A stretch of 32,000 bases of DNA from Pseudoalteromonas tetraodonis (GTDB lineage: Bacteria; Pseudomonadota; Gammaproteobacteria; Enterobacterales; Alteromonadaceae). Location: contig NZ_CP011041.1 of assembly GCF_002310835.1 (NCBI RefSeq), forward strand, positions 870,001 through 902,000, given 5' to 3'. Made by a program: the position numbers and the translations under genes. This document shows positions 7,040 through 26,765 of the stretch, piece by piece (the first letter of the stretch is position 1; the number at the start of each line of letters is the position of its first letter). The notes beneath the pieces are model-generated. The model was not told the DNA's origin and searched no databases. It saw only the letters and a list, made by a program, of their open reading frames with translations.

Positions 7040-7061
7040 AGCCCCTTGGAATTAAGGGGCT
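7040..7061 (+). other. intercistronic stem-loop between argG and argH
   Basis: AGCCCCTT (7040-7047) pairs with AAGGGGCT (7054-7061), with loop GGAATT. No T-tract follows, so it is not a canonical terminator. Confidence 0.5.
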
Positions 7062-7084
7062 ATTATCGGGTTTGGAGAGATTTC

Positions 7085-8950
7085 ATGGCATTATGGGGCG
7101 GGCGTTTTTCTACGGGTCCAGATGAAGCGTTTAAACAATTTAACGATTCACTTCCCTTCGATTATCAATTAGCAGAGCAAGATATTATTGGCTCTGTTGC
7201 ATGGGCTGGCGCACTTGAACAAGTGAACGTGTTATCTAATGACGAACACCAAAAGCTGGTATCGGCATTATATGAATTACTTGAAGAGGTAAAAGCAGAT
7301 CCACAAGCTGTTGCCACCTCAGGTGCTGAGGATATTCACTCGCATGTTGAAGCCGCGCTAATTGAAAAAGTGGGTGATTTAGCTAAAAAATTACACACTG
7401 GACGCAGTCGTAACGACCAAGTTGCTACCGACTTTAGATTATGGTGTCGCGATACCGCCGATCACATTTTAAAAGCGATTGCACAATTAAAAGCTGAATT
7501 TGTTGCCCTTGCTGAGCGTGAGTTAGGCACAATATTGCCAGGCTACACCCACTTACAGCGTGCACAGCCCGTGTTATTTAGCCATTGGTGTATGGCTTAT
7601 GTAGAAATGTTAGAGCGTGATGAAAGCCGGTTGCAAGATGCCCAAGCACGAATGAACTATTGCCCATTAGGCAGTGGCGCTCTTGCGGGAACTGCCTATC
7701 CTATTGACCGTCATGCACTTGCGCAAGGGTTAGGGTTTATAGGCGCGACCAAAAATAGTCTTGATGGTGTATCTGATCGTGATTTTGTGGTTGAGCTATT
7801 AAGCTGTGCGTCTATCTCTATGATCCACTTATCGCGCATGTCTGAAGACTTGATTTTTTATAACTCAGGAGAAGCTGGGTTTATCGAACTGGCTGATAAT
7901 GTTACATCGGGCTCATCTTTGATGCCGCAGAAAAAGAACCCTGATGCACTAGAGCTTATTCGTGGCAAAACAGGACGGGTGTTTGGTGCGTTTAGTGCAA
8001 TGATGATGACTCTAAAAGCACTGCCGCTTGCCTACAATAAAGACATGCAAGAAGACAAAGAAGGCATTTTTGACGCTATGCCAACGTGGCTTGCGTGTAT
8101 TCATATGGCGCAAGCGTGTATTAAGGGTGTAACAGTTAAAGCAGACAAAACTTTAGCAGCGGCAAAAGGTGGCCACGCGAATGCAACCGAGCTTGCTGAT
8201 TATTTGGTAGCCAAAGGTGTGCCGTTCAGAGAAGGGCATCATATTGTTGGGGTATTGGTGCAATTAGCCATTAGTGAAGGTAAAACGTTAGAGGAGCTTT
8301 CACTTGAGCAGTATAAATCAGTAAACCCAGTGTTTGAAGATGACGTGTATCCGGTACTTGAAATTGATGCTTGTATTAAAGCACGTCAAGCACTTGGCGG
8401 AACCTCATTAGAACAAGTAAGTAAAGCGGTTAAAGACGCGAAAAAAAAACAGCAAATAACAGTTCGTGATGCAAACCTAGATGACGTGGAAGTAATCGCT
8501 AAACTCGTGCAACATTGGGCAACAGTCGGCGAAAACTTACCGCGCGCTAAAAGTGACATGGTGCACTCAATTAATGAATTTGCCGTGACAGAGATTAATG
8601 GGCAGGTATCAGGTTGTGCTTCATTATACATTTACGACACCGGATTAGCTGAAATACGCTCTTTAGGTATTGACCCTAAAAGCGGGGTAACAGGGCAAGG
8701 GCGAGAGCTGGTAGAACATTTATTAGTAAAAGCCAAAAAATTGGCACTCAATCGTGTCATCGTTCTGACTCGTGTACCTGACTTTTTCGAAAATCAGCGG
8801 TTTAGTTTCTGTAATAAAGAGAGCCTACCTGAAAAAGTCATGAAAGATTGTGAGTTATGTTTACGTAAAGAAAACTGTGATGAAGTCGCAATGGAATATA
8901 TGTTAAAGCCAAGTAATAGCATGGAGATCCCTTGTAAAAACGTGGCTTGA
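7085..8950 (+). CDS. argH: bifunctional argininosuccinate lyase / GNAT-type N-acetylglutamate synthase fusion, argH(A)
   Basis: The ORF opens at 7046, but ATG 7085 (MALWGGRFS) with a GGAGAG SD at 7074-7079 fits lyase N-termini. The fumarate-lyase signature [12 protein letters not shown] is present. The ~165 residues after the KKK linker form a GNAT domain ([25 protein letters not shown], an acetyl-CoA motif A-like segment). Confidence 0.92.
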
Positions 8951-8964
8951 GCAATCCCTAGGAT

Positions 8965-8999
8965 AAAAAACGCACGGTGACCCCGATGCGTTTTTTTTT
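8965..8999 (+). terminator. rho-independent terminator of the arg operon
   Basis: CGCACGG (8971-8977) pairs with CCG-A-TGCG (8983-8990, one bulged A). An A6 run precedes it and a T9 run (8991-8999) follows. Confidence 0.8.
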
Positions 9000-9047
9000 G
9001 AGTAAAATAAAGTGATGTTTTAAATTAATATGCTATGAATTTAAAGT

Positions 9048-9063
9048 TGGCATATCGGTTGCA
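9048..9063 (+). promoter_or_regulatory. candidate sigma-54 (RpoN) -24/-12 promoter
   Basis: TGGCATatcggTTGCA matches the consensus TGGCAC-N5-TTGCW. GG and GC have the canonical spacing and orientation. It lies ~140 nt upstream of the 9204 ORF, in an intergenic region directly after the arg terminator. Confidence 0.6.
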
Positions 9064-9203
9064 TTTATAGTTCTGTAGTGTGTTGTTGAGTCAATTAATC
9101 AACGAAGGCAATACGTTACAGAAGTTATTTAGTAACTGCTCCAGATGGTGTGATTTAAATTTGCGCCAATAATAAAAATTTAATACTCATAAGGATTAAT
9201 CAC

Positions 9204-9398
9204 ATGCAAATTTCAGCTAATAGCCAAGTACAAATGCAAGCATATAATAAAACGCAACAATTAAAGCCTGCAATGGAACAAACTGCTAGCCCTAAAACCC
9301 TACAATCTGATACAGTTAGTATATCTCAAGAGGCAATGAGTGCTGCTGGTGCAGAACTTCGTCGTGGCGGCGGTATTGTACCTATCAAACCTAAATAA
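9204..9398 (+). CDS. small hydrophilic protein of unknown function (64 aa)
   Basis: An AAGGA SD (9191-9195) lies 8 nt before the ATG. It is the first cistron of a 4-gene same-strand block, 16 nt from the next gene. The segment QSDTVSISQEA loosely resembles the central D-x-V-x-L-S motif of FlgM-type proteins. There is no signal peptide or TM segment. Confidence 0.55.
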   Translation: MQISANSQVQMQAYNKTQQLKPAMEQTASPKTLQSDTVSISQEAMSAAGAELRRGGGIVPIKPK

Positions 9399-9414
9399 TT
9401 AATTAAGGTTTTAA

Positions 9415-9948
9415 ATGTTTTTAACTGAGTTTTTTGGTTTTTTCTCGCTTTCAGCGTTTACAATGTGGGGCTTTTTAATGGCATTTTTTTTTAATGTCTT
9501 TGTCTATACTTTAAACGTAAAAAGAAATACAACTTTATTACTCAGTTCATTTATTATGATGGTTTCTTATACTCTTTCAGACTATTTTTTTACTTGGCTA
9601 TCAATTAAAACTGCGGTTTTATTAGATTGGGCTATCTATGATATTTTTACCATTCTTTGCTTGCTAATAGCTATGGCTATGTTAAGAAAAACGACACCCT
9701 CTTTTTTGTATTTAATTGTGGGTCTTGCAATAAATTCACTTTTCTTTTCCCTCATGTACTTAGATTTGAATGTATATCAAAATAAAGAACCTTGGCTTTT
9801 TTGGGATATCTACACCTTCAGTGTAAACATTATTGATCTGATTATGATTGTCGCTTTAATAGTAGACCGTGATTTCCTTGGCTTACACACCCTTAAAAGT
9901 AAACTCATTTCATTATTCAAAACGACTGAGCTTAACAAAATCCAATAA
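9415..9948 (+). CDS. 5-TM membrane protein, paralog 1 of 3, unknown family
   Basis: 177 aa with about five hydrophobic helices. It shares the motifs WGFLMA, SY in helix 2, (E/D)PWxFW and IIDLIMIVALIVDRDFLGL with the next two ORFs. Its stop TAA abuts the next ATG. Confidence 0.75.
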   Translation: MFLTEFFGFFSLSAFTMWGFLMAFFFNVFVYTLNVKRNTTLLLSSFIMMVSYTLSDYFFTWLSIKTAVLLDWAIYDIFTILCLLIAMAMLRKTTPSFLYLIVGLAINSLFFSLMYLDLNVYQNKEPWLFWDIYTFSVNIIDLIMIVALIVDRDFLGLHTLKSKLISLFKTTELNKIQ

Positions 9949-10458
9949 ATGTATTATGTAGACTTATTTTTAGCAGATTATATCGATGCATTTATACAGT
10001 GGGGCTTTTTAATGGCCATGTTGTACGCTTTGGTATCGAGTATAAATACGCTAAATAAATCTTTGGTCTATTTAGCCACAATCATGTTCTTTTCTTACCT
10101 TATTGGTGATTTCCTTTTAGTTTTCAAAAACGTTTACCTTAACTGGATTTTTTTTGATTTCGCTACAGTTTGTATTATTTTTATAATAACAAAAGCTTCA
10201 AGCTTTGAAAGCGATGTGGCTAAAAACTATATTGTTAGTGGCTTATTGATTAATGCTTGTTTAACGTATGCTATTTACATAGATCTTTATATAAACTGGA
10301 ACTCAGATCCTTGGTGGTTGTGGAGCCTGTACTCTATGGGGGTTAATGTTGTTGATTTACTAATGATTATTACTATTTTTATCAATAAAGACTTTTTAGG
10401 GCTAATGAAACTTAAAGGTCGTTTATTTAGATCACGCGCTGAGTTTAAAAGCCCATAA
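9949..10458 (+). CDS. 5-TM membrane protein, paralog 2 of 3, unknown family
   Basis: 169 aa, collinear with paralogs 1 and 3 (WGFLMAMLY, DPWWLWSLY, VVDLLMIITIFINKDFLGL). Its ATG directly follows the upstream TAA. Its own TAA overlaps the next ATG by 1 nt. Confidence 0.75.
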   Translation: MYYVDLFLADYIDAFIQWGFLMAMLYALVSSINTLNKSLVYLATIMFFSYLIGDFLLVFKNVYLNWIFFDFATVCIIFIITKASSFESDVAKNYIVSGLLINACLTYAIYIDLYINWNSDPWWLWSLYSMGVNVVDLLMIITIFINKDFLGLMKLKGRLFRSRAEFKSP

Positions 10459-10979
10459 TGACAGATTTATTATGGCTACTTGTTAAAGTTGGCGAGAATT
10501 TAGGTAATTTTATTTTGTGGCTATTTTTAATCGCTTTTCTATATAATCTTTCTTCGAGCATTAATAAACAAGATAAAAGCTTGCTGCATATTTCATTGAT
10601 AATGATGATTTCTTATTTTCTAAGTGCATTTTTAAGCCTCGAAACTTCAACTTATAAAGATTATTTCATATTTGATCTCACAACTATTTTTACACTTTTT
10701 TTGTGGCGAAAAATCACGTTGCAAAATACACCTATTGCTTTTTATTACTTAATTCTGGGGTTGGGTGTTAATACCTGTTTATTTTTGGGGATGCATTATG
10801 ATGTTCAAGTTAAAGGAAACATTGATTATTGGTGGTTTTGGGCTGCATATGGGTTTGGCGTTATTCTATTTGATCTTATAATGGCATTGGCACTATTTAT
10901 CAATAAAGATTTTTTGGGCTTAGTGAGGCTTAAGAACGTTCTGTTTCCATCAAGAGCGAAGCTACCTAGCGTAATGTAA
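10458..10979 (+). CDS. 5-TM membrane protein, paralog 3 of 3, unknown family
   Basis: 173 aa, with WLFLIAFLY, DYWWFWAAY and LFDLIMALALFINKDFLGL. Its C-terminal tail LFPSRAKLPS parallels LFRSRAEFKS of paralog 2. Confidence 0.75.
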   Translation: MTDLLWLLVKVGENLGNFILWLFLIAFLYNLSSSINKQDKSLLHISLIMMISYFLSAFLSLETSTYKDYFIFDLTTIFTLFLWRKITLQNTPIAFYYLILGLGVNTCLFLGMHYDVQVKGNIDYWWFWAAYGFGVILFDLIMALALFINKDFLGLVRLKNVLFPSRAKLPSVM

Positions 10980-10992
10980 CGATACGCTAGGT
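10964..10992. terminator. hairpin spanning the stop codon, between the convergent membrane-protein operon and coaD
   Basis: Perfect 10-bp inverted repeat ACCTAGCGTA (10964-10973) / TACGCTAGGT (10983-10992) with a 9-nt loop that contains the TAA stop. The flanking T/A runs are only weak. Confidence 0.5.
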
Positions 10993-10999
10993 GTTGTGT

Positions 11000-11614
<615 letters not shown>

Positions 11615-16334: not shown

Positions 16335-16511
16335 AATGGTGTGATTTTTTTAGTAGGATAATCGGGAAGTTGGTGCGTTTTCATTGATGAAGTCAATCCC
16401 AACACTGCCCCCGCAACGGTAAAGTTATGCTGTATTAAATTATGGTAACTGAGTCCGGAGACCGGCCTTGATTTAATCTTACTTACTAACATCTTTGCGG
16501 TGGGCAAAGAT
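16335..16511 (+). promoter_or_regulatory. cobalamin (B12) riboswitch with expression-platform hairpin
   Basis: Conserved elements: AATCGGGAAGTTGGTGCG (16360-16377), CACTGCCCCCGCAACGGTAAAG (16403-16424) and the B12 box AGTCCGGAGACCGGCC (16452-16467). A hairpin ATCTTTGC / GCAAAGAT (16491-16511) abuts the AGGGGA SD of btuB. Confidence 0.9.
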
Positions 16512-16518
16512 AGGGGAC

Positions 16519-18372
16519 ATGATGCTAAATAAAACCGCACTGGGTATGGCCATTTCGGCTGCACTCTCTTTTTCTGTATCTGCTGCAGAACAATCAATCG
16601 AAACAATAACAGTAACCGCTAATAAGTTTGAACAACCTATAAATGATGTATTAGCAAGTGTGGCAGTTATCGAGCGCGCTGATATTGAAAAAGCGAATTA
16701 TCGAGACTTACCTGCAATATTAAATACTATTGCTGGGATAGATATTGTTCGTAATGGTGGGTTAGGTCAAAAAGCAGATATATTTGTTCGCGGGGCCAGT
16801 GCTAAATATACCTTAGTATTGGTTGATGGCGTAAGAGTGAGCGATGCAAGTTCAGGTAGTGTATCGCTGACGAATATTCCAGTTAACAGTATCGAGCGTG
16901 TTGAAATTATAAAAGGTGCCAGAGCGGCTATTTATGGCTCAGACGCGGTAGCCGGAGTAATTAATATTATCACCCGTAAAGCCTCAAATAACTCGCTTTC
17001 GGCTACTTTAGGCAGCCATAGCTACAGTAATTATCAGCTTGCTGGTGGGCTTGTAAAAGAGGCGCTTAGCTTTAATTATAATTTAGGCTACGAAGAGACG
17101 GATGGTTTTGATGTTACTGGCAAAGATCCAGCGGCTGAGTACACAAAAGATCATGATGATGATGGCTACAAAAATAAAAACATTGGCTTTAATTTAGCTT
17201 ATGAGCTTGCTGAACTAGGCCAATTGAGCCTGCAATCTCAGTATAGTGAAGGCGAAGCACAATATGATAATGCAAGGGGTAACGATGCCTACGACTTTGA
17301 AAATTACACCGCTAAGCTAGGCTGGAACAAAGCCTCAGATATATATAGCCAAAGTACTTCGGTGAGCGTTTCGCAAGAAGAAAATACCCAAACAGGTACC
17401 GATGTGCAGCAAGTGTATAGCACAGAGCGTGTTGAGTTTGAATATCGAGGGCTTTATACCCTTACTGAAGAACTTGATATATCGGGTGGCTTTAATTATT
17501 TATCTGAGGATTTATCAAACTCGTCAGCAACGTCATCAGAAGAAAAACGCGATAATAAGGCGTTGTTTATAGGCGCGTTTTATAGCCATAACAAATGGTT
17601 AGCAAATGCGGTTGTTAGAACCGATGATTATGACTTCCATGGCCGTGCAAACACTTACAGTACAGGACTTGGTTACAAAGCAAATAACTATGTAACACTA
17701 CGTTTAAATCACGGTACTGCATTTAGAGCTCCTTCGTTAATTAATGCGTTTGTGACTAACAGCCCGTACTATTTACCAAACAATAATATTAAACCTGAAG
17801 AAGCCTTAAATAATGAGCTTGGTATAACTTTAGAAACCCAATGGGGCCGTTATGATATTGCTATTTTCGATAACCGTATCAATAATTTGATTAGTAATAA
17901 TTATGATGCAGACTCAGGTAAATATATTGCCACTAACATAGATAAAGTATCTATGCAGGGATTTGAGCTGTCGGCAGAGTTTTCAGCGCTAGGCTTTGAA
18001 CACTCGGTTAATTTTAGCTTTTTAGACGCTACAGATGAAAAAACGAATACCGATTTACCACGTAGACCTTCTGAATCGTTTAATTATCAACTCGCTAAAA
18101 CATGGGGTGATTTTGATGCCAGCTTGGATATGCAATATCGCTCATCGCGTCCTTCGATTGCGTATTATGACTCGGAGCTCGCTGCTTATACGGTATTTAA
18201 TATAGCAGCCAATTACCAGTTGCTAGATAATTTGTCGTTAGCTGCTCGAATAGAGAATATTACTGATGAAGAATATTTTACTGCTGCGACGGGCTTTGCT
18301 GCCAGTGGTAAGCTATTAGGTTATAACAGCGCAGGAAGAACTTTCTTTGTAGGGGCAAATTATCAGTTTTAG
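16519..18372 (+). CDS. btuB: TonB-dependent vitamin B12 outer-membrane receptor
   Basis: It has a signal peptide (MMLNKTALGMAISAALSFSVSAA) and a TonB box and plug (ETITVTANKFEQP, compare E. coli DTLVVTANRFEQP). It ends in a terminal aromatic residue (GANYQF). A B12 riboswitch lies directly upstream. The ORF track's TTG 16495 start lies inside the riboswitch platform. Confidence 0.9.
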   Translation: MMLNKTALGMAISAALSFSVSAAEQSIETITVTANKFEQPINDVLASVAVIERADIEKANYRDLPAILNTIAGIDIVRNGGLGQKADIFVRGASAKYTLVLVDGVRVSDASSGSVSLTNIPVNSIERVEIIKGARAAIYGSDAVAGVINIITRKASNNSLSATLGSHSYSNYQLAGGLVKEALSFNYNLGYEETDGFDVTGKDPAAEYTKDHDDDGYKNKNIGFNLAYELAELGQLSLQSQYSEGEAQYDNARGNDAYDFENYTAKLGWNKASDIYSQSTSVSVSQEENTQTGTDVQQVYSTERVEFEYRGLYTLTEELDISGGFNYLSEDLSNSSATSSEEKRDNKALFIGAFYSHNKWLANAVVRTDDYDFHGRANTYSTGLGYKANNYVTLRLNHGTAFRAPSLINAFVTNSPYYLPNNNIKPEEALNNELGITLETQWGRYDIAIFDNRINNLISNNYDADSGKYIATNIDKVSMQGFELSAEFSALGFEHSVNFSFLDATDEKTNTDLPRRPSESFNYQLAKTWGDFDASLDMQYRSSRPSIAYYDSELAAYTVFNIAANYQLLDNLSLAARIENITDEEYFTAATGFAASGKLLGYNSAGRTFFVGANYQF

Positions 18373-19051: not shown

Positions 19052-22000
19052 TTAGATCTCTTTAAGCGGTTTTTCAGCGGCTTGCTTATCAAGTTTTTGT
19101 TGTAAAAACTCAGGTGATTGTGTGTTTCGTGCTAGTGCGTAATAAGCGGCTGGCACCACAAACAGAGTTAGTATGGTTGCCACCGTTACGCCAGTAAATA
19201 CCACCACACCAATTACCATTCTACTTTCCGAGCCTGGACCGGAAGCCAACACCAAAGGTACGGCACTCATAACCGTTGTTAGGGAAGTCATAATAATAGG
19301 GCGCAAACGCTGTGTAGCCGCTTGTAAAATAGCCTCACTAAATTCTACGCCTTTATCACGTAACTGGTTGGTAAATTCAACGATCAGTATACCGTTTTTA
19401 GCACTTAACCCAATGAGCATAACAATGCCTATTTGGCTGTATATATTAAGCGTTAACCCCATACTCCACAGCCCAAACATGGCACCCATTAAACCAAGTG
19501 GCACAGTTAACATAATAACAAATGGATGCATAAAACTTTCAAACTGAGCTGCCAGTACTAAAAAGGTCACGGTTAATGCCAGCACAAACACATAGGTCAT
19601 GGCTGAGGCACCTTCATAAAACAATTGCGACTCACCTTTATAGTCAATGGCACCATCAATGTCGTTTTCCTCTGTGGCAACCTTGTTTAAAAAGTTTAGT
19701 GCTTGTTCTAGCGTGTAACCATCAGCGAGGTTGGCACTTAAAGTAATTGCACGCATTCGGTTATAGCGATTTAAACGCGAGGCGGTGGCTTCTTCTTTTA
19801 AGCTAATAAGGCTATCAAGAGGAACAAGTTCTCCGCTACGTGATTTTAGGTAAATATTTGAAATATCAGTCGGGTTGGCAAAGTCTTGTTTTGTGCCCTT
19901 TAAAATTACATCGTATTCTTCACCGCGGTCAATAAAGGTGGTTACACGGCGTTGGCCAAGCATGGTTTCAAGTGTACGACCCACATCAGAGACTGATACG
20001 CCTAAATCAGCGGCTTTATTTTTATCAATACTGACTAAAAACTGAGGGAAGGTTTCTTTATAATCATGATCAATACGCACTAATCCAGGGTTTTTCTCAG
20101 CGCGTTTAATAATTCTATCTCGCCAATCGGCAAGTTGAGCATAATCATTACCTTGCAAAACAAATTCAATAGGGCGAGATGAACCACCTCCGCCAATACC
20201 ACGGCGCATAATAGCAAATGCACGAACGTCGGTGACCTCTTGCATTTTGCCGCTTATTTCATCCATGACTTCCCATGTTGAGCGTTTGCGCTTATCCCAG
20301 TCAGCCATGCCAACAATAGCCACGCCGCCACTGCCACCCCAACCTGGGACTCGAACAAGCACTCGACTTAGTTCGCCAGATTCAGAATAAGGCATCAAGC
20401 GCTCTTCAATTTTTGCCATATTAGCTGCGTTATTTTCATAACTTGCCCCTTCAGGGCCATTCATAAGCACAAAGAAGGTGCCACGATCTTCTTTTGGCGT
20501 GAGCTCTGAGGGTATTTGTAAAAATAATGAATAACTAACAAACCCAGCCAAAACTAAGCTCAGCATTAAGCCCCATTTACGGGTCATGTTTGACGCTAAA
20601 GCGTTACGGTATCCATTTTCTAATTTAGTAAAAAAACGGTCCATAACTTGGCTAAACTTACTTTCTTTTTCAGAGGCCTTTAACACTTTTGAACACAGCG
20701 CCGGAGAGAGTGTCAACGCAGTGATACTAGAGAAAAACACGGCAGCACTTACTGCCATAGCAAACTCTGTAAATAGTGCGCCAATTCGTCCTTCCATAAA
20801 CACTAATGGTACAAACACGGATATAAGCACTAAGGTGGTGGCTATAATTGCAAAGCCCACCTCACGTGCGCCGCGATAAGCTGCCAATAAAGGCGGTTCA
20901 CCAAGTTCAATACGGCGGTGAATATTCTCTAGCATTACAATGGCATCATCGACCACTAAGCCTATTGCTAACACCAGTGCTAGTAGAGTTAATAAGTTAA
21001 TTGAATAACCCATTGCTAATAAAAACATGAAACTACTGACTAGGGCGACTGGTACTGTGACCGCGGGAATAAGAGTGGCGCGAATGTTACCTAAAAATAT
21101 AAAGATAATAAGCACGACTAACCCCATAGAAATTGCTAAAGTTTTATAAACCTCATTAATTGACTCTTTAATAAATACCGAAGAATCATAACTGTCTTCT
21201 ATGGTGGTGCCTTCAGGTAAATTACGTTTTATTTTTTCCAGTTCACTGCGGGCGTTATCAACCACAGTTAGGGTATTGGCTTTGGCTTGTTTAACAATAC
21301 CCATACCAATCATATTACGGCCATTACCTCGGAATAAACTTTCATCATCGGCGGCTTCTAGTTTTACGTCAGCCACTTCGCCTAGACGCACTAAATAACC
21401 ATCTTCACCTCGTTTAATAACTAGGTTTTGAAAATCACGTTGGTTTTTATAGCTGCGGGCAGTGCGAACGGTAAAATCACGATCAACTGATTCAATTTCA
21501 CCGGCCGGAAGTTCTACATTTTCACTACGCAGTGTTTGCTCAATATCACTGGAGGTAATACCACGGGCGGCCATCGCTTGGCGGTTAAGCCATACTTTCA
21601 TGGCATACTTTCGCTCCCCCCCAATGCGCACATTCGATACGCCATCAACAACGGCTAATCGATCTACAATAAAACGCTGTGCATAATCAGAAAGTTGCAA
21701 TGAATCCATGGTTTCGCTGTTAAGTACAAACCACGCGATAGGGCTTTCGTCACTATTTGATTTTGATACTTCAGGAGGACGCACTTGTTCGGGTAGGCTA
21801 TCAAGTGCACGCGCTACACGTTCACGCACATCGTTGGAGGCATCGTCTATGTCACGGCTAATATTAAACTCAATGGTAATGTTTGAGCGGCCATTACGAC
21901 TCGATGAGTTAATACTTTTAATACCTTCAATGCCCGAAATACGATTTTCAATAACTTGCGTTATTTTTGTTTCAATAATTTCGGCAGATGCACCGGTATA

Positions 22001-22150
22001 TTCAGTACTAATATTTACAATCGGTGTTTCAATATCTGGATACTCTCGCAAAGGCAACATGCTAAAAGCAACTAAGCCAAATGTGAGTAACAGTAAGTTA
22101 ATAACAATCGCAAAAACGGGGCGTTTGACGCTAGTATCGGTAATTTTCAC
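19052..22150 (-). CDS. RND multidrug efflux transporter, inner-membrane permease subunit (AcrB/HAE1 type)
   Basis: 1032 aa with 12-TM architecture and two large periplasmic loops. The N-terminus MKITDTSVKRPVFAIVINLLL is typical of the family, and GLVVDDAIVMLENI is conserved. It lies 3 nt downstream of the adaptor gene. Confidence 0.95.
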   Translation of the reverse strand: MKITDTSVKRPVFAIVINLLLLTFGLVAFSMLPLREYPDIETPIVNISTEYTGASAEIIETKITQVIENRISGIEGIKSINSSSRNGRSNITIEFNISRDIDDASNDVRERVARALDSLPEQVRPPEVSKSNSDESPIAWFVLNSETMDSLQLSDYAQRFIVDRLAVVDGVSNVRIGGERKYAMKVWLNRQAMAARGITSSDIEQTLRSENVELPAGEIESVDRDFTVRTARSYKNQRDFQNLVIKRGEDGYLVRLGEVADVKLEAADDESLFRGNGRNMIGMGIVKQAKANTLTVVDNARSELEKIKRNLPEGTTIEDSYDSSVFIKESINEVYKTLAISMGLVVLIIFIFLGNIRATLIPAVTVPVALVSSFMFLLAMGYSINLLTLLALVLAIGLVVDDAIVMLENIHRRIELGEPPLLAAYRGAREVGFAIIATTLVLISVFVPLVFMEGRIGALFTEFAMAVSAAVFFSSITALTLSPALCSKVLKASEKESKFSQVMDRFFTKLENGYRNALASNMTRKWGLMLSLVLAGFVSYSLFLQIPSELTPKEDRGTFFVLMNGPEGASYENNAANMAKIEERLMPYSESGELSRVLVRVPGWGGSGGVAIVGMADWDKRKRSTWEVMDEISGKMQEVTDVRAFAIMRRGIGGGGSSRPIEFVLQGNDYAQLADWRDRIIKRAEKNPGLVRIDHDYKETFPQFLVSIDKNKAADLGVSVSDVGRTLETMLGQRRVTTFIDRGEEYDVILKGTKQDFANPTDISNIYLKSRSGELVPLDSLISLKEEATASRLNRYNRMRAITLSANLADGYTLEQALNFLNKVATEENDIDGAIDYKGESQLFYEGASAMTYVFVLALTVTFLVLAAQFESFMHPFVIMLTVPLGLMGAMFGLWSMGLTLNIYSQIGIVMLIGLSAKNGILIVEFTNQLRDKGVEFSEAILQAATQRLRPIIMTSLTTVMSAVPLVLASGPGSESRMVIGVVVFTGVTVATILTLFVVPAAYYALARNTQSPEFLQQKLDKQAAEKPLKEI

Positions 22151-22153
22151 GTG

Positions 22154-23215
22154 TTACCCCTTAACGCTTACTTTACTACCTGAGCGAATTTTAATTATTC
22201 CCTCGGTAACAATTTGCTCGCCATTACTTAACCCTTTGTCTATCGCAACCCAGCCATTATTTCTACTTACAACATGTACTTCTTTACGGTTTGCTATGCC
22301 ATCTTCAATTTGAAAAACGTAATGCTTATCTTGCAGAGGAATAATGGCCTTTTCAGGCACCATCAGCGCTTGGTTACTGCTCAGTTCTAAAGCGGTATTA
22401 AGCAACATGCCTGGGCGAAGTAAACCTGATTTATTAGCAAAACTTGCTGTTACTTCTACACTGCGAGTGATTGAGTCGATACGTGAGCTTATATGGGTTA
22501 CTTTACCGCTGAAGGTTTGATCAGGGTAAGCATCGTTTTGAGTGCGAACAATCATTCCGTTTTTCAATTGAGCTAAATACTTTTCAGGCACTTTAAAATC
22601 AACTTTTATAATACTAATGTCATCGAGGGTTGTGATCACAGTACTATTATTAATATACGCACCCACCGATATTTCGCGTTTCCCCAGTAACCCAGAAAAA
22701 GGCGCGGTGATGGCCATTTCATTGAGTTTGGTTTTAGCACTTTCAAGTTGTGCTTCGCTGGCATCAACGCGAGCGAGTTGTTCTTCAAGCAATGACTTGG
22801 CCGTCGCTTGCGAGCGAGAAAGCTCGGTCAGTCTGGCTAATTGACGTTTTTCTTCTTGTAAATTAATGCTAAGTTCTTTTACTGCAAATTGTTCTTGTTG
22901 GTTTTGCAGTTGTACTAATTTTTGTCCTTTGCTGACCAAGTCGCCATCTTCAAAGTAAATGCTAGTGACATAATCGTTTTGAGCGCTTTTAATGTAGATA
23001 GCCTGATTAGCACGAGCACTGCCAATGGCTTCAATCATAATTGCGTTTTCTTGCGATCTTACCGTGTGGGCAGAGACTTGCGTTGTCATTGGCGAGTAAT
23101 TGGCTTGCTCGCCCTGTGATGCGGGAAAATACAAATAAACGCTAAAAATTATTAGTAACGAAATAATAAATGGAAATAAGGCTTTACCTGATTGTTTAGA
23201 GTGCATTGTTTTCAT
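22154..23215 (-). CDS. RND efflux periplasmic adaptor (membrane fusion protein)
   Basis: 353 aa with an N-terminal membrane anchor, a coiled-coil hairpin region (QLARLTELSRSQ...QLESAKTKL) and beta-barrel domains. It sits immediately upstream of the RND permease. Confidence 0.9.
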   Translation of the reverse strand: MKTMHSKQSGKALFPFIISLLIIFSVYLYFPASQGEQANYSPMTTQVSAHTVRSQENAIMIEAIGSARANQAIYIKSAQNDYVTSIYFEDGDLVSKGQKLVQLQNQQEQFAVKELSINLQEEKRQLARLTELSRSQATAKSLLEEQLARVDASEAQLESAKTKLNEMAITAPFSGLLGKREISVGAYINNSTVITTLDDISIIKVDFKVPEKYLAQLKNGMIVRTQNDAYPDQTFSGKVTHISSRIDSITRSVEVTASFANKSGLLRPGMLLNTALELSSNQALMVPEKAIIPLQDKHYVFQIEDGIANRKEVHVVSRNNGWVAIDKGLSNGEQIVTEGIIKIRSGSKVSVKG

Positions 23216-24526: not shown

Positions 24527-24592
24527 TTTATAATGGCATTTTTTTTGCTTAATATTTTTATTAGATAATTTTAAGACAAAAAGGTGCTGAGT

Positions 24593-26239
24593 ATGAGAGC
24601 AATTTCGTTAATACCACTTATGTCATGCTTGCTTTTGGCTGCATGCGGAGGGGGAGGCGGTGCTGATAACAGTGATATAAAAACATCAGTATTTGCAGGT
24701 AACGATCTTCAAGTTGTAGAAAAATCAGAGTTTACTATTTCTGCAAAAGGCTCTCCTGCAGATGGTATATTTACTTGGCAGCGTGTAAGTGGCCCTATTA
24801 TAGATGTGTTTCCGCTTGAAGGGGCTGAACAAACCATTACTGCACCAGATGTAAAGTCTGACAGTGAACTGGTATTAAGAGTTAGTTATCAAACCTCAGA
24901 TGGCAGTTTAGTGAATGACGACTTGAGTGTTTTCATTGCCTCTAATAATCAGCTTCCTCTTGCTGTTGTTACTCAAGTTGCTCCTGCAAACTTGCCCTCA
25001 GTTTATAAGGATACTGTAACCCTTAGTGGTTTAACTTCCACAGACCCCGATGAAAATGGCGAAATTAGCAGTTATTTGTGGCAATTATTGTCAGGGCCGG
25101 ATTTAACAATTGATAGCTATACCAATCCAACGCTTAGTTTTTCTCATCCATTATTAGAAAATAACACCAACTTAAAATGGCAGCTCACCGTAACAGATGA
25201 TGAGGGCGGAGTATCTGCATCACAATTTGATATGACCCTTAATAAAACAGCCCAGGTAATTATTGCCGATGCAGGCGCTAATCAAACAGTAGAAGAGTTT
25301 GATAAGGTTATTTTAGATGCCACAGCCAGTGAAGCGGCAACTCAATCTTATCAATGTAAGTGGCAACAACTTACCGGTAATGCAGAAACCCTGATTGAAT
25401 CACAGTCATGTACTGCCAGCTTTTTTGCCTCTGATATTGATTTAAATGCAACGCTTAGCTTTGAAGTACAAGTTATGGACTTAAAAGGGCGCACCGACAC
25501 AGATACCGTATTTATTGATGTAACACCCAAAGCGCTAGGGTTAATAAATGATACAGGAGTAGGAGAGTGTTATAACAATACTCAGCGAATTAATTGTAAT
25601 AATGATGAATTTCCAGCTCAAGATGCTGATCTTGGGCGCGATAGTTTTGCCAATCGTTTAGGTAAAGTGGGTAAAGGGAATCTGGCTTTTGATTACACCA
25701 AACTTAATGAGTTTGCCGATGAGCTTCTCGATGATGCGCAAAACTTTAGCTGTATTCGTGATAATACTACCGGCCTTGTTTGGGAAGTAAAAAGCCCTTA
25801 TTCCGGGGTGTTACCAAATACCACTTTACGTGATGGGCAAAACCGTTACATTTGGCAAGGAACTGTCAATAGCGGCGATGTAGCGGGTAGTGATAATACC
25901 ACGTGCCCGAGCAATACTGATTGCGGATTACAAACCTATATTGATGAAGTTAATGCGCTTGATTTTTGTGGTGGTAGTAACTGGCGTTTACCCACTTATA
26001 CTGAACTTTTAGGTTTAATTGATTACGGTAAACAAGGGCAAAACGTATTGATAGATACTGCATTTTTTCCTAATACACCATCGACTAACACCGAAGGGCA
26101 TTTACGCTATTGGACCTCACAGACCGCGGTTGATGGTGCCAGTTTATCTCAGGCTTACATTATCGATATGATGGATGGCAACGACTTAGCCTATCCAAAA
26201 GATAATGCCGCTTATGTGCGCTTAGTTAGAAATCGTTAA
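24593..26239 (+). CDS. lipoprotein with three PKD/Ig-like repeats and a C-terminal DUF1566 (Lcl C-terminal-like) domain
   Basis: ATG 24593 gives MRAISLIPLMSCLLLAAC, with the lipobox LAAC followed by GGGGG. Three ~90-aa repeats share the W-Q-(x)-(V/L)-(S/T)-G pattern (FTWQRVSGP, YLWQLLSGP, CKWQQLTGN). The C-terminal motifs GLVWEVK, NWRLPTYTELLGLI and AYVRLVRN are typical of DUF1566. The ORF track starts at GTG 24584. Confidence 0.75.
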   Translation: MRAISLIPLMSCLLLAACGGGGGADNSDIKTSVFAGNDLQVVEKSEFTISAKGSPADGIFTWQRVSGPIIDVFPLEGAEQTITAPDVKSDSELVLRVSYQTSDGSLVNDDLSVFIASNNQLPLAVVTQVAPANLPSVYKDTVTLSGLTSTDPDENGEISSYLWQLLSGPDLTIDSYTNPTLSFSHPLLENNTNLKWQLTVTDDEGGVSASQFDMTLNKTAQVIIADAGANQTVEEFDKVILDATASEAATQSYQCKWQQLTGNAETLIESQSCTASFFASDIDLNATLSFEVQVMDLKGRTDTDTVFIDVTPKALGLINDTGVGECYNNTQRINCNNDEFPAQDADLGRDSFANRLGKVGKGNLAFDYTKLNEFADELLDDAQNFSCIRDNTTGLVWEVKSPYSGVLPNTTLRDGQNRYIWQGTVNSGDVAGSDNTTCPSNTDCGLQTYIDEVNALDFCGGSNWRLPTYTELLGLIDYGKQGQNVLIDTAFFPNTPSTNTEGHLRYWTSQTAVDGASLSQAYIIDMMDGNDLAYPKDNAAYVRLVRNR

Positions 26240-26249
26240 GGTTATTATT

Positions 26250-26765
26250 ATGAAATTAATTAAAGTCTCTATGTTATTAGCCTTGGGATTATGCCAGTCA
26301 CTTGCAGCGCAGCAGTGTTATGAAGAGGTAGCGACTAGCGATGATACCGACCGATTTGTGATTAATATTGATGGCACTGTGTCAGATACTAAAACAGGGC
26401 TAATGTGGCAGCGCTGTAACTATGGTCAAGTTTATAATAGCGAAACAACTAGCTGCGATGGCGATACTCAACCATTAAATTGGCAAGCTTCACTTAAAGG
26501 CGCACTTAATGACACCACGGCAAATTATAACGACTGGCAAGTGCCGAGTATTAAAGAGTTAGCTAGTATAGTAGATCACCGTTGTACCGATCCAAGTATT
26601 AATGCGGGTATTTTTTTAGCAACGCAGTCGCAAAATTATTGGTCTAATACCTCGGGTATTAGCAATATAAACTCGGCATGGGTTTATCAATTTTCCAGTG
26701 GTTTAAATAGCTTACATGCTAAAACAAGTAACGTATATTTACGCCTAGTACGCTATGAGAAGTAG
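26250..26765 (+). CDS. secreted stand-alone DUF1566 (Lcl C-terminal-like) protein
   Basis: 171 aa with a Sec signal peptide (…CQSLA/AQQ). GLMWQRC, DWQVPSIKELASIV, YWSNTS and VYLRLVRY parallel the C-terminal domain of the upstream lipoprotein. The gap to that gene is 10 nt. Confidence 0.75.
   Translation: MKLIKVSMLLALGLCQSLAAQQCYEEVATSDDTDRFVINIDGTVSDTKTGLMWQRCNYGQVYNSETTSCDGDTQPLNWQASLKGALNDTTANYNDWQVPSIKELASIVDHRCTDPSINAGIFLATQSQNYWSNTSGISNINSAWVYQFSSGLNSLHAKTSNVYLRLVRYEK

What the first reader, a model, noticed from the sequence alone, without database searches (positions are those of the whole stretch)
9415..10979. Three tandem, translationally coupled paralogous 5-TM proteins of an unrecognised family
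The three consecutive ORFs (177, 169 and 173 aa) are collinear paralogs. All three share W(G/L)FL(M/I)A at helix 1, SY in helix 2, a (D/E)(P/Y)WW(F/L)W segment before the last helix, and the striking (I/V/F)DL(I/L)MI...I(N/D)(K/R)DFLGL at its end. The gene junctions are TAAATG (9946-9951) and TAATG (10456-10460), which implies coupled translation and probably stoichiometric co-production, for example of a heteromeric membrane complex. At the DNA level they are well diverged, so the triplication is old and has been maintained. I recognise no transporter, holin, immunity or sensor family from these motifs. The block looks more AT-rich than its housekeeping neighbours, though I judged that by eye only. 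It sits between the arg operon and coaD, with its own candidate sigma-54 promoter. This is the best candidate in the window for an undescribed system. A T9 run (9484-9492) and a T8 run (10148-10155) lie inside the coding regions; they probably just reflect Phe codons.
Basis: partly seen in the sequence, partly recalled or inferred. Interest (0 to 1): 0.7.

Follow-up and report, generated by a model that had tools for sequence, protein, structure and literature searches.

The report
Hypervariable small-protein and membrane-protein gene array
The three membrane-protein genes are real but are not a fixed trio: they belong to an uncharacterised, fast-changing locus in which a small protein with a hypervariable tail is paired with a matching membrane protein, followed by a gene array of 2 to 8 paralogues depending on the species.

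Summary
Three collinear paralogous 5-TM ORFs (177, 169 and 173 aa; 33-40% identical) with TAAATG and TAATG junctions match no Pfam, NCBIfam, PADLOC, PHROG, PDB or fold-library entry. The fixed heterotrimer reading does not hold. In other Pseudoalteromonas the same argHA-coaD slot holds 2 to 8 paralogues, sometimes apparently broken, and relatives in Colwellia and unassigned metagenome contigs have one copy.

The conserved unit is the upstream 64-aa ORF plus the first 5-TM gene. The small protein has an almost invariant 52-aa N-part, a QRGG(G) hinge and a hypervariable 7-13-aa Pro/Lys tail (over 60 variants). Tail and first gene change together as one cassette, even between genomes with near-identical flanks. 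All alleles are under purifying selection.

The sigma-54 -24/-12 element is conserved in 13 of 13 aligned loci. The low GC reflects amino-acid composition, because GC3 equals the flanks. Outside the genus the module often lies beside mobile-element genes: P4-type integrases, P2-like tail genes and CI-type repressors.

Best reading, which is inferred: a polymorphic cognate pair resembling toxin-immunity or exclusion systems, with extra paralogues as a specificity repertoire. The function is untested.

The parts
8966..8999 (+). Intrinsic terminator of the arg operon (hairpin ACGCA...TGCGT followed by a T9 run). It separates the block from argH/A.
   Evidence: Read from the sequence. It is one of three conserved islands in the alignment of 13 Pseudoalteromonas intergenic regions. 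The automatic terminator scan did not list it.
9048..9063 (+). Candidate sigma-54 promoter (-24 TGGCA, -12 TTGCA), about 140 nt upstream of the small ORF.
   Evidence: The pattern TGGCAY-N5-TTGCW has 2 hits in the window against 0.25 expected. The TTGG...TTGC core is invariant in 13 of 13 aligned loci within otherwise poorly conserved DNA. rpoN dependence was not tested.
9204..9398 (+). Small ORF (64 aa), the conserved partner of the 5-TM genes. A Shine-Dalgarno AAGGA lies at 9191-9195.
   Evidence: Present upstream of the first 5-TM gene in all 17 Pseudoalteromonas genome-scan loci (L001-L017). Analogous small ORFs occur in the loci outside the genus (L018-L024). dN/dS is 0.14-0.31. The AF2 model is mostly disordered, pLDDT 59.
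9204..9359 (+). Conserved N-terminal part of the small protein (residues 1-52, MQISANSQVQMQAYNKTQQLKPAMEQTASPKTLQSDTVSISQEAM...).
   Evidence: 21 invariant and 10 near-invariant columns among 121 sequences.
9360..9374 (+). Hinge or demarcation motif RRGGG (QRGG(G) in most relatives).
   Evidence: R54 is invariant and G56 near-invariant. The drop in nucleotide identity between closely related genomes starts here.
9375..9395 (+). Hypervariable C-terminal tail (IVPIKPK in this genome).
   Evidence: At least 60 different tails among 120 cluster representatives. The pattern is 2-4 hydrophobic residues, Pro, Ser or Asp, then [KR]-P-[KRQ]. The tail co-varies with c1.
9415..9948 (+). c1, the first 5-TM gene (177 aa). 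It is the hypervariable member tied to the tail allele.
   Evidence: Orthologues are only 54-76% identical where the flanking proteins are 87-96% identical. L006 and L011 have argHA dS of 0.04 but c1 identity of 66%.
9949..10458 (+). c2, the second 5-TM paralogue (169 aa). It has no Shine-Dalgarno sequence and its start directly follows the c1 stop.
   Evidence: 100% identical to a protein of Pseudoalteromonas sp. SM9913 (P0001). The best match in other species is only 29-44%.
10458..10979 (+). c3, the third 5-TM paralogue (173 aa). Its start overlaps the c2 stop (TAATG).
   Evidence: It belongs to a paralogue type also found as c4-c8 in other species, at about 50% identity.
9484..9492 (+). 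T9 run inside c1 (Phe codons).
10148..10155 (+). T8 run inside c2 at the conserved (I/F)FFD codons.
   Evidence: A similar T8 run in the homologous part of a paralogue of L008 lies where that ORF is frameshifted. This is either strand slippage or an assembly error.

Best explanation
The block is the local form of a two-part module: a small, largely disordered protein whose C-terminal Pro/Lys tail is the specificity element, plus a cognate 5-TM inner-membrane protein (c1).

Shown:
1. The pair is conserved across Pseudoalteromonas, Colwellia and unassigned marine metagenome contigs. The number of further 5-TM genes is not conserved.
2. Tail and c1 form one hypervariable cassette that is exchanged between lineages. 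The upstream promoter and leader, and the downstream genes, stay conserved.
3. Every allele is under purifying selection.
4. In Pseudoalteromonas the module sits at a fixed site behind a conserved sigma-54-type promoter. It is followed by a birth-and-death array of old paralogues, three in this window.
5. Outside the genus the module often lies next to integrases, satellite genes or prophage genes.

Inferred:
- The tail docks onto the 5-TM protein. The most likely site is the family-wide conserved aromatic and acidic periplasmic face (N102, D112, the N-x-D/E-P-W-W-x-W loop and Y128). The conserved Pro and Lys residues would contact conserved Trp, Tyr and Asp. The variable tail residues would contact the variable loop 2, TM3 and loop 4.
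- The pair works as a lock and key in a conflict or self-recognition role. This would be a miniature version of polymorphic toxin-immunity or exclusion loci.
- c1 would be the cognate partner. c2 and c3 would be extra specificities (an immunity or receptor repertoire), not stoichiometric subunits.

Not established: which partner is harmful and which protects, how the leaderless Pseudoalteromonas protein would reach the periplasm, and whether the tail is cleaved off after GG.
For: Family and pairing:
- 343 hits at 90% clustering, the best 120 listed carrying only Pseudoalteromonas names where named, apart from one short contig binned as a Bacteroidota MAG (see noticed in passing). 109 clusters at 50% identity among 1.84 billion proteins, none longer than 207 aa and none fused to another domain. 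Distant members are in Colwellia, Thalassomonas and Algicola.
- A small ORF with a C-terminal hydrophobic-Pro-(Pro)-Lys tail precedes the first 5-TM gene in every locus read. Examples: IVPIKPK, GGVYVPPK, GGVYIPPK, IILPPK and EFPPPKPPG. Four of the small ORFs outside the genus carry Sec-type signal peptides.

Hypervariable cassette:
- At least 60 tails behind an almost invariant leader.
- L006 against L011: 97-100% nucleotide identity through argHA, the promoter and the leader. Identity falls to 61-82% over the tail and c1, then returns to 84-98% in c2 and c3.
- The window against L003 shows the same boundaries, 9320-9800.
- Across 42 non-redundant tail/c1 pairs, Mantel r = 0.53 and p = 0.0002. 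Identical tails go with c1 identity of 80-99%. Very different tails go with a mean of 58% and a maximum of 82%.
- Partial Mantel test controlling for argHA distance: r = 0.53, p = 0.0006.

Selection: c1 dN/dS is 0.08-0.13 at dS of about 0.22.

Array: 2 to 8 copies. Copies within a genome are 29-56% identical, so there are no recent duplicates. Broken copies occur in L001, L008 and L009.

Conserved site: Y63, Y94, L99, N102, D112, W122, W125 and Y128. Positive-inside counts place loop 4 in the periplasm. c1 variability peaks in loop 2, TM3, loop 4 and the C-terminal tail.

Sigma-54.

Mobile-element settings: L020 and L024 lie directly beside a P4-type integrase in islands with AlpA and a Phage_GPA primase. 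L020 also has precomputed GAPS4 defence-system Pfam hits. L021 lies near P2-like tail genes. L019 lies beside CI-type repressors. P4-like satellites carry a defence hotspot next to int (PMC9122126).
Against: - No activity, binding, secretion or phenotype has been tested. The docking model is inference only.
- Tail and c1 are about 20 nt apart. Their co-variation could be plain linkage inside one recombination tract.
- The Pseudoalteromonas small protein has no signal peptide, whereas the conserved face of the 5-TM protein is predicted to be periplasmic.
- No exporter or protease gene lies in the window.
- A 7-13-aa tail is too short to be an enzymatic toxin.
- Downstream paralogues do not resemble c1 alleles of other strains. 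c1 forms its own cluster. This is not what a simple collection of orphan immunities against the same peptide family predicts.
- No member was found in sequenced phages, plasmids or IMG/VR contigs.
- L023 is an ordinary chromosomal setting.
- My own hmmscan and PADLOC runs did not reproduce the GAPS4 label in L020.
Confidence: 0.4

Rival explanations
1. Peptide signalling. The small protein is a pheromone precursor with a conserved leader, a GG processing site and a short variable C-terminal mature peptide, as in Phr, PapR, ComS or arbitrium. The 5-TM proteins are its sensors, giving pherotypes. The extra paralogues listen to other variants.
For: - The leader, hinge and hypervariable C-terminal tail architecture.
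- Allele coupling with the adjacent membrane protein, as in agr and com pherotypes.
- Sec signal peptides on some homologues outside the genus.
- Mobile-element settings recall arbitrium.
Against: - The 5-TM proteins have no output domain. All family members are 207 aa or shorter.
- No kinase or regulator is consistently adjacent.
- No exporter or oligopeptide importer lies nearby.
- No processing has been shown.
- As far as I know, peptide quorum sensing is essentially undescribed in Gammaproteobacteria.
Confidence: 0.15
2. Abortive-infection or toxin-antitoxin-type module. The 5-TM protein is a latent membrane-damaging effector, similar in logic to RexB or a holin. The small protein, encoded upstream like an antitoxin, holds it shut through its tail. 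Infection or stress releases it.
For: - The gene order (small protein first, tightly spaced) and the allele-specific pairing.
- The integrase-proximal cargo position in P4-type islands beside a putative defence system, and the prophage and repressor neighbourhoods.
- Conserved polar residues inside TM3 to TM5.
Against: - Arrays of up to 8 putative effectors with a single small protein are hard to reconcile with one-to-one neutralisation.
- No PADLOC match.
- A fixed core-genome location with a sigma-54 promoter across a whole genus.
Confidence: 0.15
3. The three proteins are stoichiometric subunits of one heteromeric membrane complex with a cellular transport or envelope role.
For: - Coupled junctions without Shine-Dalgarno sequences for c2 and c3.
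- The paralogues are old and under purifying selection.
- Polar residues lie within the TM helices.
Against: - Copy number is 2-8 at the same locus and 1 outside the genus.
- The paralogue sets differ between genomes whose flanks are almost identical.
- Broken copies are tolerated.
- c1 is hypervariable.
Confidence: 0.07
4. An envelope or surface-polysaccharide accessory locus. The variable membrane proteins would be linked to capsule or LPS diversity, which would explain the hypervariability.
For: A wzi (capsule assembly) gene lies between the array and coaD in several Pseudoalteromonas clades. Surface-polysaccharide loci are classic hypervariable regions flanked by core genes.
Against: - wzi is absent from this window and from many loci.
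- No glycosyltransferase, flippase or polymerase gene is adjacent.
- The module travels without such genes in the loci outside the genus, including Colwellia.
- There is no similarity to Wzx, Wzy or O-antigen ligase families.
Confidence: 0.05

Closest known systems
Polymorphic toxin-immunity loci (CdiA-CT/CdiI, Rhs-CT/RhsI and similar)
   Same: A conserved N-terminal part, a short demarcation motif (here QRGG), a hypervariable C-terminus, a co-varying gene immediately downstream, recombination boundaries at the motif, further related genes in a variable array, and frequent carriage on mobile elements.
   Different: The variable part is only 7-13 residues and cannot be an enzyme domain. There is no delivery machinery (T5SS, T6SS or Rhs shell). 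The downstream partner is a 5-TM membrane protein rather than a small soluble immunity protein. There is no sequence or fold relationship. Toxicity has not been shown.
Class II bacteriocin and microcin loci with membrane immunity proteins
   Same: A small ribosomal peptide gene followed by one or more polytopic membrane-protein genes, allele diversity, and a variable number of immunity-like genes.
   Different: The GG lies near the C-terminus and not after a 15-30-aa N-terminal leader. Position -4 is Arg. No peptidase-ABC exporter lies nearby. There is no Pfam hit to CPBP/Abi or any bacteriocin immunity family.
Pherotype loci (agrBDC, comCDE) and C-terminal peptide signals (Phr, PapR, arbitrium AimP)
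   Same: A conserved pro-region with a short hypervariable functional peptide, coupled allelic variation in an adjacent polytopic membrane protein, and the mature part at the C-terminal end of a small precursor.
   Different: No kinase, RRNPP-type receptor or regulator is present. The conserved His and Cys of AgrB are absent. These bacteria are Gram-negative. Processing and secretion have not been shown.
Membrane-protein exclusion and abortive-infection modules of prophages (for example lambda RexAB, or Sie/Imm-type proteins)
   Same: Small polytopic membrane proteins carried as cargo next to integrase or repressor genes of prophages and satellites.
   Different: No homology. In Pseudoalteromonas the module sits at a fixed core-genome site as a multi-copy array. 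No phage phenotype has been tested.

Membership tests
Any curated protein family (Pfam-A, NCBIfam) | Profile match above the curated threshold | tested here: not met
   The best hits are far below the cut-offs: cyoE_ctaB at 15.5 bits against 210 needed, and DUF4956 at 10.2 against 30.6. The same holds for the small ORF.
Known anti-phage defence systems (PADLOC 2.0) and phage protein families (PHROGs) | Profile match to a component model | tested here: not met
   No PADLOC hit. The best PHROG hit has E = 0.84.
Any solved or predicted viral fold | Significant sequence or structure match | tested here: not met
   A profile search against PDB gave 0 hits at E of 10 or less. Foldseek against PDB gave a best E of 0.27 with TM about 0.3. 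Foldseek against BFVD gave a best E of 0.02, to uncharacterised phage membrane proteins. No AlphaFold DB library was available.
Double-glycine-leader bacteriocins and microcins | An N-terminal 15-30-aa leader (LSxxELxxIxGG) followed by a long core peptide | tested here: not met
   The GG lies 7-13 residues from the C-terminus and position -4 is Arg.
Double-glycine-leader bacteriocins and microcins | An adjacent peptidase-containing ABC exporter | tested here: not met
   No ABC or C39 peptidase gene among the window's 29 ORFs of 120 aa or more.
CPBP/Abi-type bacteriocin immunity proteins | EExxxR, FxxxH and HxxxN motifs with a PF02517 match | tested here: not met
   No Pfam hit. No conserved Glu or His across the family.
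FlgM anti-sigma-28 (for the small ORF) | A PF04316 match or a match to solved FlgM chains | tested here: not met
   The D-T-V-S-I-S-x-E-A stretch resembles FlgM by eye only. There is no Pfam hit at E of 10 or less and no FlgM among the PDB profile hits.
Sigma-54-dependent promoter | GG-N10-GC with TGGCAC-N5-TTGCW at the right distance upstream, conserved among relatives | tested here: met
   TGGCATATCGGTTGCA at 9048-9063. The core is invariant in 13 of 13 aligned loci.
Sigma-54-dependent promoter | Transcription depends on rpoN and an enhancer-binding protein | not testable with these tools
   No expression data are available, and no activator gene lies in the window.
Polymorphic toxin-immunity system | Conserved N-part, demarcation motif, hypervariable C-terminus and a co-varying downstream gene | tested here: met
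Polymorphic toxin-immunity system | The C-terminal part is toxic and is neutralised only by the cognate partner, and a delivery apparatus exists | not testable with these tools
   No toxin domain or secretion genes were detected. This needs experiments.
   Copy number is 1-8 and the paralogue sets differ between close genomes.

The most novel reading that the evidence does not exclude
This is a previously undescribed class of polymorphic recognition system in Gram-negative marine bacteria. A ribosomally made small protein presents a hypervariable 7-13-residue Pro/Lys tail to an allele-matched 5-TM membrane protein. The system arose as cargo of satellites and prophages. In Pseudoalteromonas it was fixed in the core genome under sigma-54 control and expanded into a repertoire of membrane partners. 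It would mediate strain-level self versus non-self discrimination, either as peptide toxin and immunity or as exclusion.
Probability: 0.3. Interest if true: 0.85.

Novelty: categorically new. Interest (0 to 1): 0.68.

Why it matters
If the reading is right, this would be a new, very compact way for bacteria to encode strain-specific recognition: a few variable residues at the end of a small protein, matched to a membrane protein. It occurs in an ecologically important marine genus known for antagonism and biofilm formation. The natural library of more than 60 tail variants with their matched partners would be a ready-made data set on peptide-membrane-protein specificity. The occurrence of the module beside integrase and prophage genes would add a candidate to the list of mobile-element conflict systems. 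Even without a function, the locus is a clear recombination and diversity hotspot between core genes, and so a useful strain-typing marker in Pseudoalteromonas.

Tried and rejected
- Foreign origin inferred from AT-richness. Rejected because GC3 of c1-c3 equals that of the flanks. The deficit lies in codon positions 1 and 2.
- FlgM-like identity of the small ORF. The resemblance is by eye only, with no Pfam or PDB support.
- Canonical double-glycine leader. The position and the -4 residue are wrong, and there is no peptidase-ABC exporter.
- Intramembrane aspartyl protease. Only one Asp (D112) is conserved family-wide. The TM3 and TM5 Asp residues become Asn in the 176-aa subfamily.
- Recent tandem duplication or gene conversion. 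Copies within a genome are at most 56% identical, and the DNA repeats are only 29-nt remnants.
- Downstream copies as orphan c1 alleles. c1 forms its own cluster, separate from all other positions.
- RNA elements. No Rfam hit in 8800-11200.
- Phage, plasmid or IMG/VR copies of the family. None were found. Two alignment-based scans could not run for lack of conserved stretches.
- Literature. Nothing was found on the 'triplicated membrane protein' annotation or on a Pseudoalteromonas RpoN regulon covering this locus.
- Sigma-54 sites upstream of the modules outside the genus. None were found, so the promoter is specific to Pseudoalteromonas.
Full report
**Observation**

The window carries three head-to-tail ORFs on the + strand: 9415-9948 (177 aa), 9949-10458 (169 aa) and 10458-10979 (173 aa). 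The junctions are TAAATG and the overlapping TAATG. Neither c2 nor c3 has a Shine-Dalgarno sequence, whereas c1 and the upstream 64-aa ORF do.

The three proteins are collinear paralogues. They are 33-40% identical, with BLASTP E from 1.6e-18 to 4e-32 under composition correction. Hydropathy and an AlphaFold2 model (pLDDT 81.5, pTM 0.78) give five TM helices and a C-terminal amphipathic helix. Lys and Arg counts place the N-terminus outside and the C-terminus inside, so the conserved N-x-(D/E)-P-W-W-x-W loop is periplasmic.

The quoted motifs and the T9 and T8 runs are present, with minor deviations. At the DNA level only a 29-nt remnant repeats.

The flanks are argC-B-F-G, an argH-argA fusion, and then coaD(-), tetR and thiI. 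c2 is identical to a protein of Pseudoalteromonas sp. SM9913. Some database entries already call these proteins 'membrane protein, triplicated sequence', so annotators had noticed the repetition. I found no study of it.

**Composition**

The block has 31-32% GC against 41-45% in the arg operon and 38-41% downstream. GC3 is 0.30-0.33 against 0.31-0.38 in the neighbours. The AT-richness therefore comes from the amino-acid composition and is not a sign of foreign DNA.

**No known family**

Pfam, NCBIfam, PADLOC and PHROGs give nothing near threshold for the three proteins or the small ORF. A family profile finds no PDB sequence at E of 10 or less. Foldseek finds no significant match in PDB or BFVD.

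The family is small. It has 343 clusters at 90% identity, the best 120 listed being named only as Pseudoalteromonas, apart from one short contig binned as a Bacteroidota MAG (P0105; see L003 and L007 below). It has 109 clusters at 50% identity among 1.84 billion proteins. All members are 207 aa or shorter, with no fused domains. The most distant members are in Colwellia, Thalassomonas and Algicola.

**Not a fixed trio**

In 17 genome loci the synteny is constant: argH/A, the small ORF, the array, sometimes wzi(-), then coaD(-), tetR and thiI. The array, however, has 2, 3, 4, 5, 6 or 8 full-length copies. Fragmented copies occur in L001, L008 and L009. These could be pseudogenes or homopolymer assembly errors.

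Copies within one genome are 29-56% identical, so they are old paralogue types that are gained and lost, not recent duplicates. Only a close relative (L003) shares this window's c2 and c3 (94% and 99%). Elsewhere the best matches are 29-53%. Relatives outside the genus have one 5-TM gene. This argues against an obligatory 1:1:1 complex.

**The conserved partner**

A small ORF precedes the first 5-TM gene everywhere. In Pseudoalteromonas it has three parts:
- an almost invariant 52-aa N-part
- a QRGG(G) hinge
- a hypervariable tail of 7-13 residues that usually ends in [KR]-P-[KRQ]

At least 60 different tails occur among 120 cluster representatives. The tail in this window is IVPIKPK.

In the loci outside the genus (Colwellia and unassigned metagenome contigs) the small proteins differ in sequence but end in the same kind of tail: GGVYVPPK (twice in L018), GGVYIPPK, IILPPK and EFPPPKPPG. 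Four of them carry Sec-type signal peptides. The window's small protein is predicted to be largely disordered (pLDDT 59).

**Tail and c1 form one allelic cassette**

L006 and L011 have near-identical flanks (argHA dS 0.04, coaD dS 0.04). Their c1 proteins are nevertheless only 66% identical, with dS of 1.7. Their nucleotide identity is 97-100% through argHA, the promoter and the leader. It falls to 61-82% from the tail codons to the end of c1, and returns to 84-98% in c2 and c3. The window against L003 shows the same boundaries: 64-79% over 9320-9800 and 99-100% over most of 10100-11000 (one 100-column bin at 94%).

A metagenome scan added 58 loci. Across 42 non-redundant tail/c1 pairs the Mantel r is 0.53 with p = 0.0002. 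Identical tails go with c1 identity of 80-99%. Very different tails go with a mean of 58% and never more than 82%. Controlling for argHA distance in 11 genomes gives r = 0.53 and p = 0.0006.

c1 variability peaks in periplasmic loop 2, TM3, the end of TM4 with loop 4, and the C-terminal tail. All alleles are constrained, with dN/dS of 0.08-0.13 at unsaturated dS. The flanking genes have dN/dS of 0.03-0.07. The alleles therefore look old and appear to be swapped by recombination. Because tail and c1 are adjacent, linkage alone could produce the coupling.

**Regulation**

The intergenic alignment of 13 loci has three conserved islands: the arg terminator, a TTGG-N(10)-TTGC sigma-54-type -24/-12 element (TGGCATATCGGTTGCA at 9048-9063 here) and the Shine-Dalgarno sequence. 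The strict pattern occurs twice in the window against 0.25 expected. The modules outside the genus lack it. No activator gene lies in the window, and rpoN dependence is untested.

**Settings outside the genus**

- In L020 and L024 the module, with a 104-aa third gene, lies directly beside a P4-type integrase in islands with AlpA and a Phage_GPA primase.
- L020 also has precomputed GAPS4 Pfam hits next to the module. My own scans did not reproduce them.
- L021 lies near P2-like tail genes, L019 beside two CI-type repressors, and L018 beside what looks like an integrase remnant, judged by eye only.
- L022 lies beside a UvrD/GajB-like helicase.
- L023 is an ordinary chromosomal site.
- P4-like satellites are known to keep a defence hotspot next to int (PMC9122126).
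- No copy was found in sequenced phages, plasmids or IMG/VR.

**Mechanism (inferred)**

The family-wide conserved residues are Y63, Y94, L99, N102, D112, W122, W125 and Y128 in c2 numbering. They line the TM4, loop 4 and TM5 face on the periplasmic side. This aromatic and acidic surface is well suited to bind a Pro- and Lys-rich peptide.

I propose that the tail docks there, or possibly on the variable cytoplasmic tail, as a lock and key. In that case the pair works like a miniature polymorphic toxin-immunity or exclusion module, and c2 and c3 add further specificities.

Weak points:
- There is no export route for the leaderless protein.
- There is no toxin domain.
- The downstream paralogues do not resemble foreign c1 alleles.
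- There are no functional data.

Confidence is 0.4. The rivals are peptide signalling (0.15), an abortive-infection or toxin-antitoxin-type gate (0.15), the heteromeric complex (0.07) and a capsule-linked role (0.05).

**Verdict**

It is an uncharacterised, hypervariable module of a small protein and membrane proteins, with no detectable relative among known systems.

Noticed in passing
window 24534-24549: A second exact match to the sigma-54 pattern (TGGCATTTTTTTTGCT) lies about 35 nt upstream of the 24584-26239 ORF, a PKD/Lcl_C-domain protein. A second Lcl_C protein follows at 26250-26765.
   Followed up: partly
window 7046-8950: argH is fused to a GNAT (argA-like) domain: Lyase_1 + ASL_C2 + Acetyltransf_1 in one 634-aa ORF. 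In L013, L014 and L017 the tblastn match covers only the argH part, and in L013 the argH ORF (459 aa) ends there.
   Followed up: partly
L005 7659-9035 (-), L013 8432-9796 (-), L025 7649-9025 (-): In several Pseudoalteromonas clades a capsule-assembly wzi gene (Pfam E = 6e-42 in L005) sits between the array and coaD. It is absent from this window.
   Followed up: partly
L008 7196-7203, compared with window 10148-10155: A T8 run in the corresponding part of a paralogue in L008 (by eye, the same FFD codons as the window's T8) lies where that copy is split into two overlapping ORFs. This is either slipped-strand inactivation or a homopolymer assembly error.
   Followed up: partly
L003 and L007 (JBCCHA010000115.1, JBCCHA010000129.1): Two short contigs binned as a Bacteroidota MAG carry this Pseudoalteromonas locus. 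L003 is 99-100% identical to most of the window's c2-c3 region and 100% identical over the 39 aligned coaD residues. They are almost certainly mis-binned.
   Followed up: no
L019 8504-8953, L021 6501-6953, L022 7504-7941; L020 6515-6829, L024 7521-7835: The modules outside the genus have a third gene overlapping or abutting the 5-TM gene. It encodes a 145-150-aa or 104-aa protein with an N-terminal TM helix and no Pfam match. Pseudoalteromonas lacks it.
   Followed up: partly
L006 5732-5986, L011 5730-5984: In these two genomes the small ORF has an in-frame 18-aa upstream extension (MWLKVAPNIIKTF(I/T)RINH). This is probably a start-codon artefact, because the conserved Shine-Dalgarno sequence precedes the internal ATG.
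   Followed up: no
L018 7742-7984: The Colwellia psychrerythraea small protein contains the HGGGGVYVPPK motif twice, once internally and once near the C-terminus. This suggests a tandem duplication of the tail unit.
   Followed up: no
window 9211-9234 and 9587-9610: A 24-nt inverted repeat (79% complementary) links the start of the small ORF with the middle of c1. It is likely chance in AT-rich DNA.
   Followed up: no
window 19052-23215 (-): An RND efflux pair: an AcrB-family pump and a HlyD-family adaptor. A TonB-dependent receptor lies at 16495-18372. These are ordinary neighbours and were recorded only for context.
   Followed up: no
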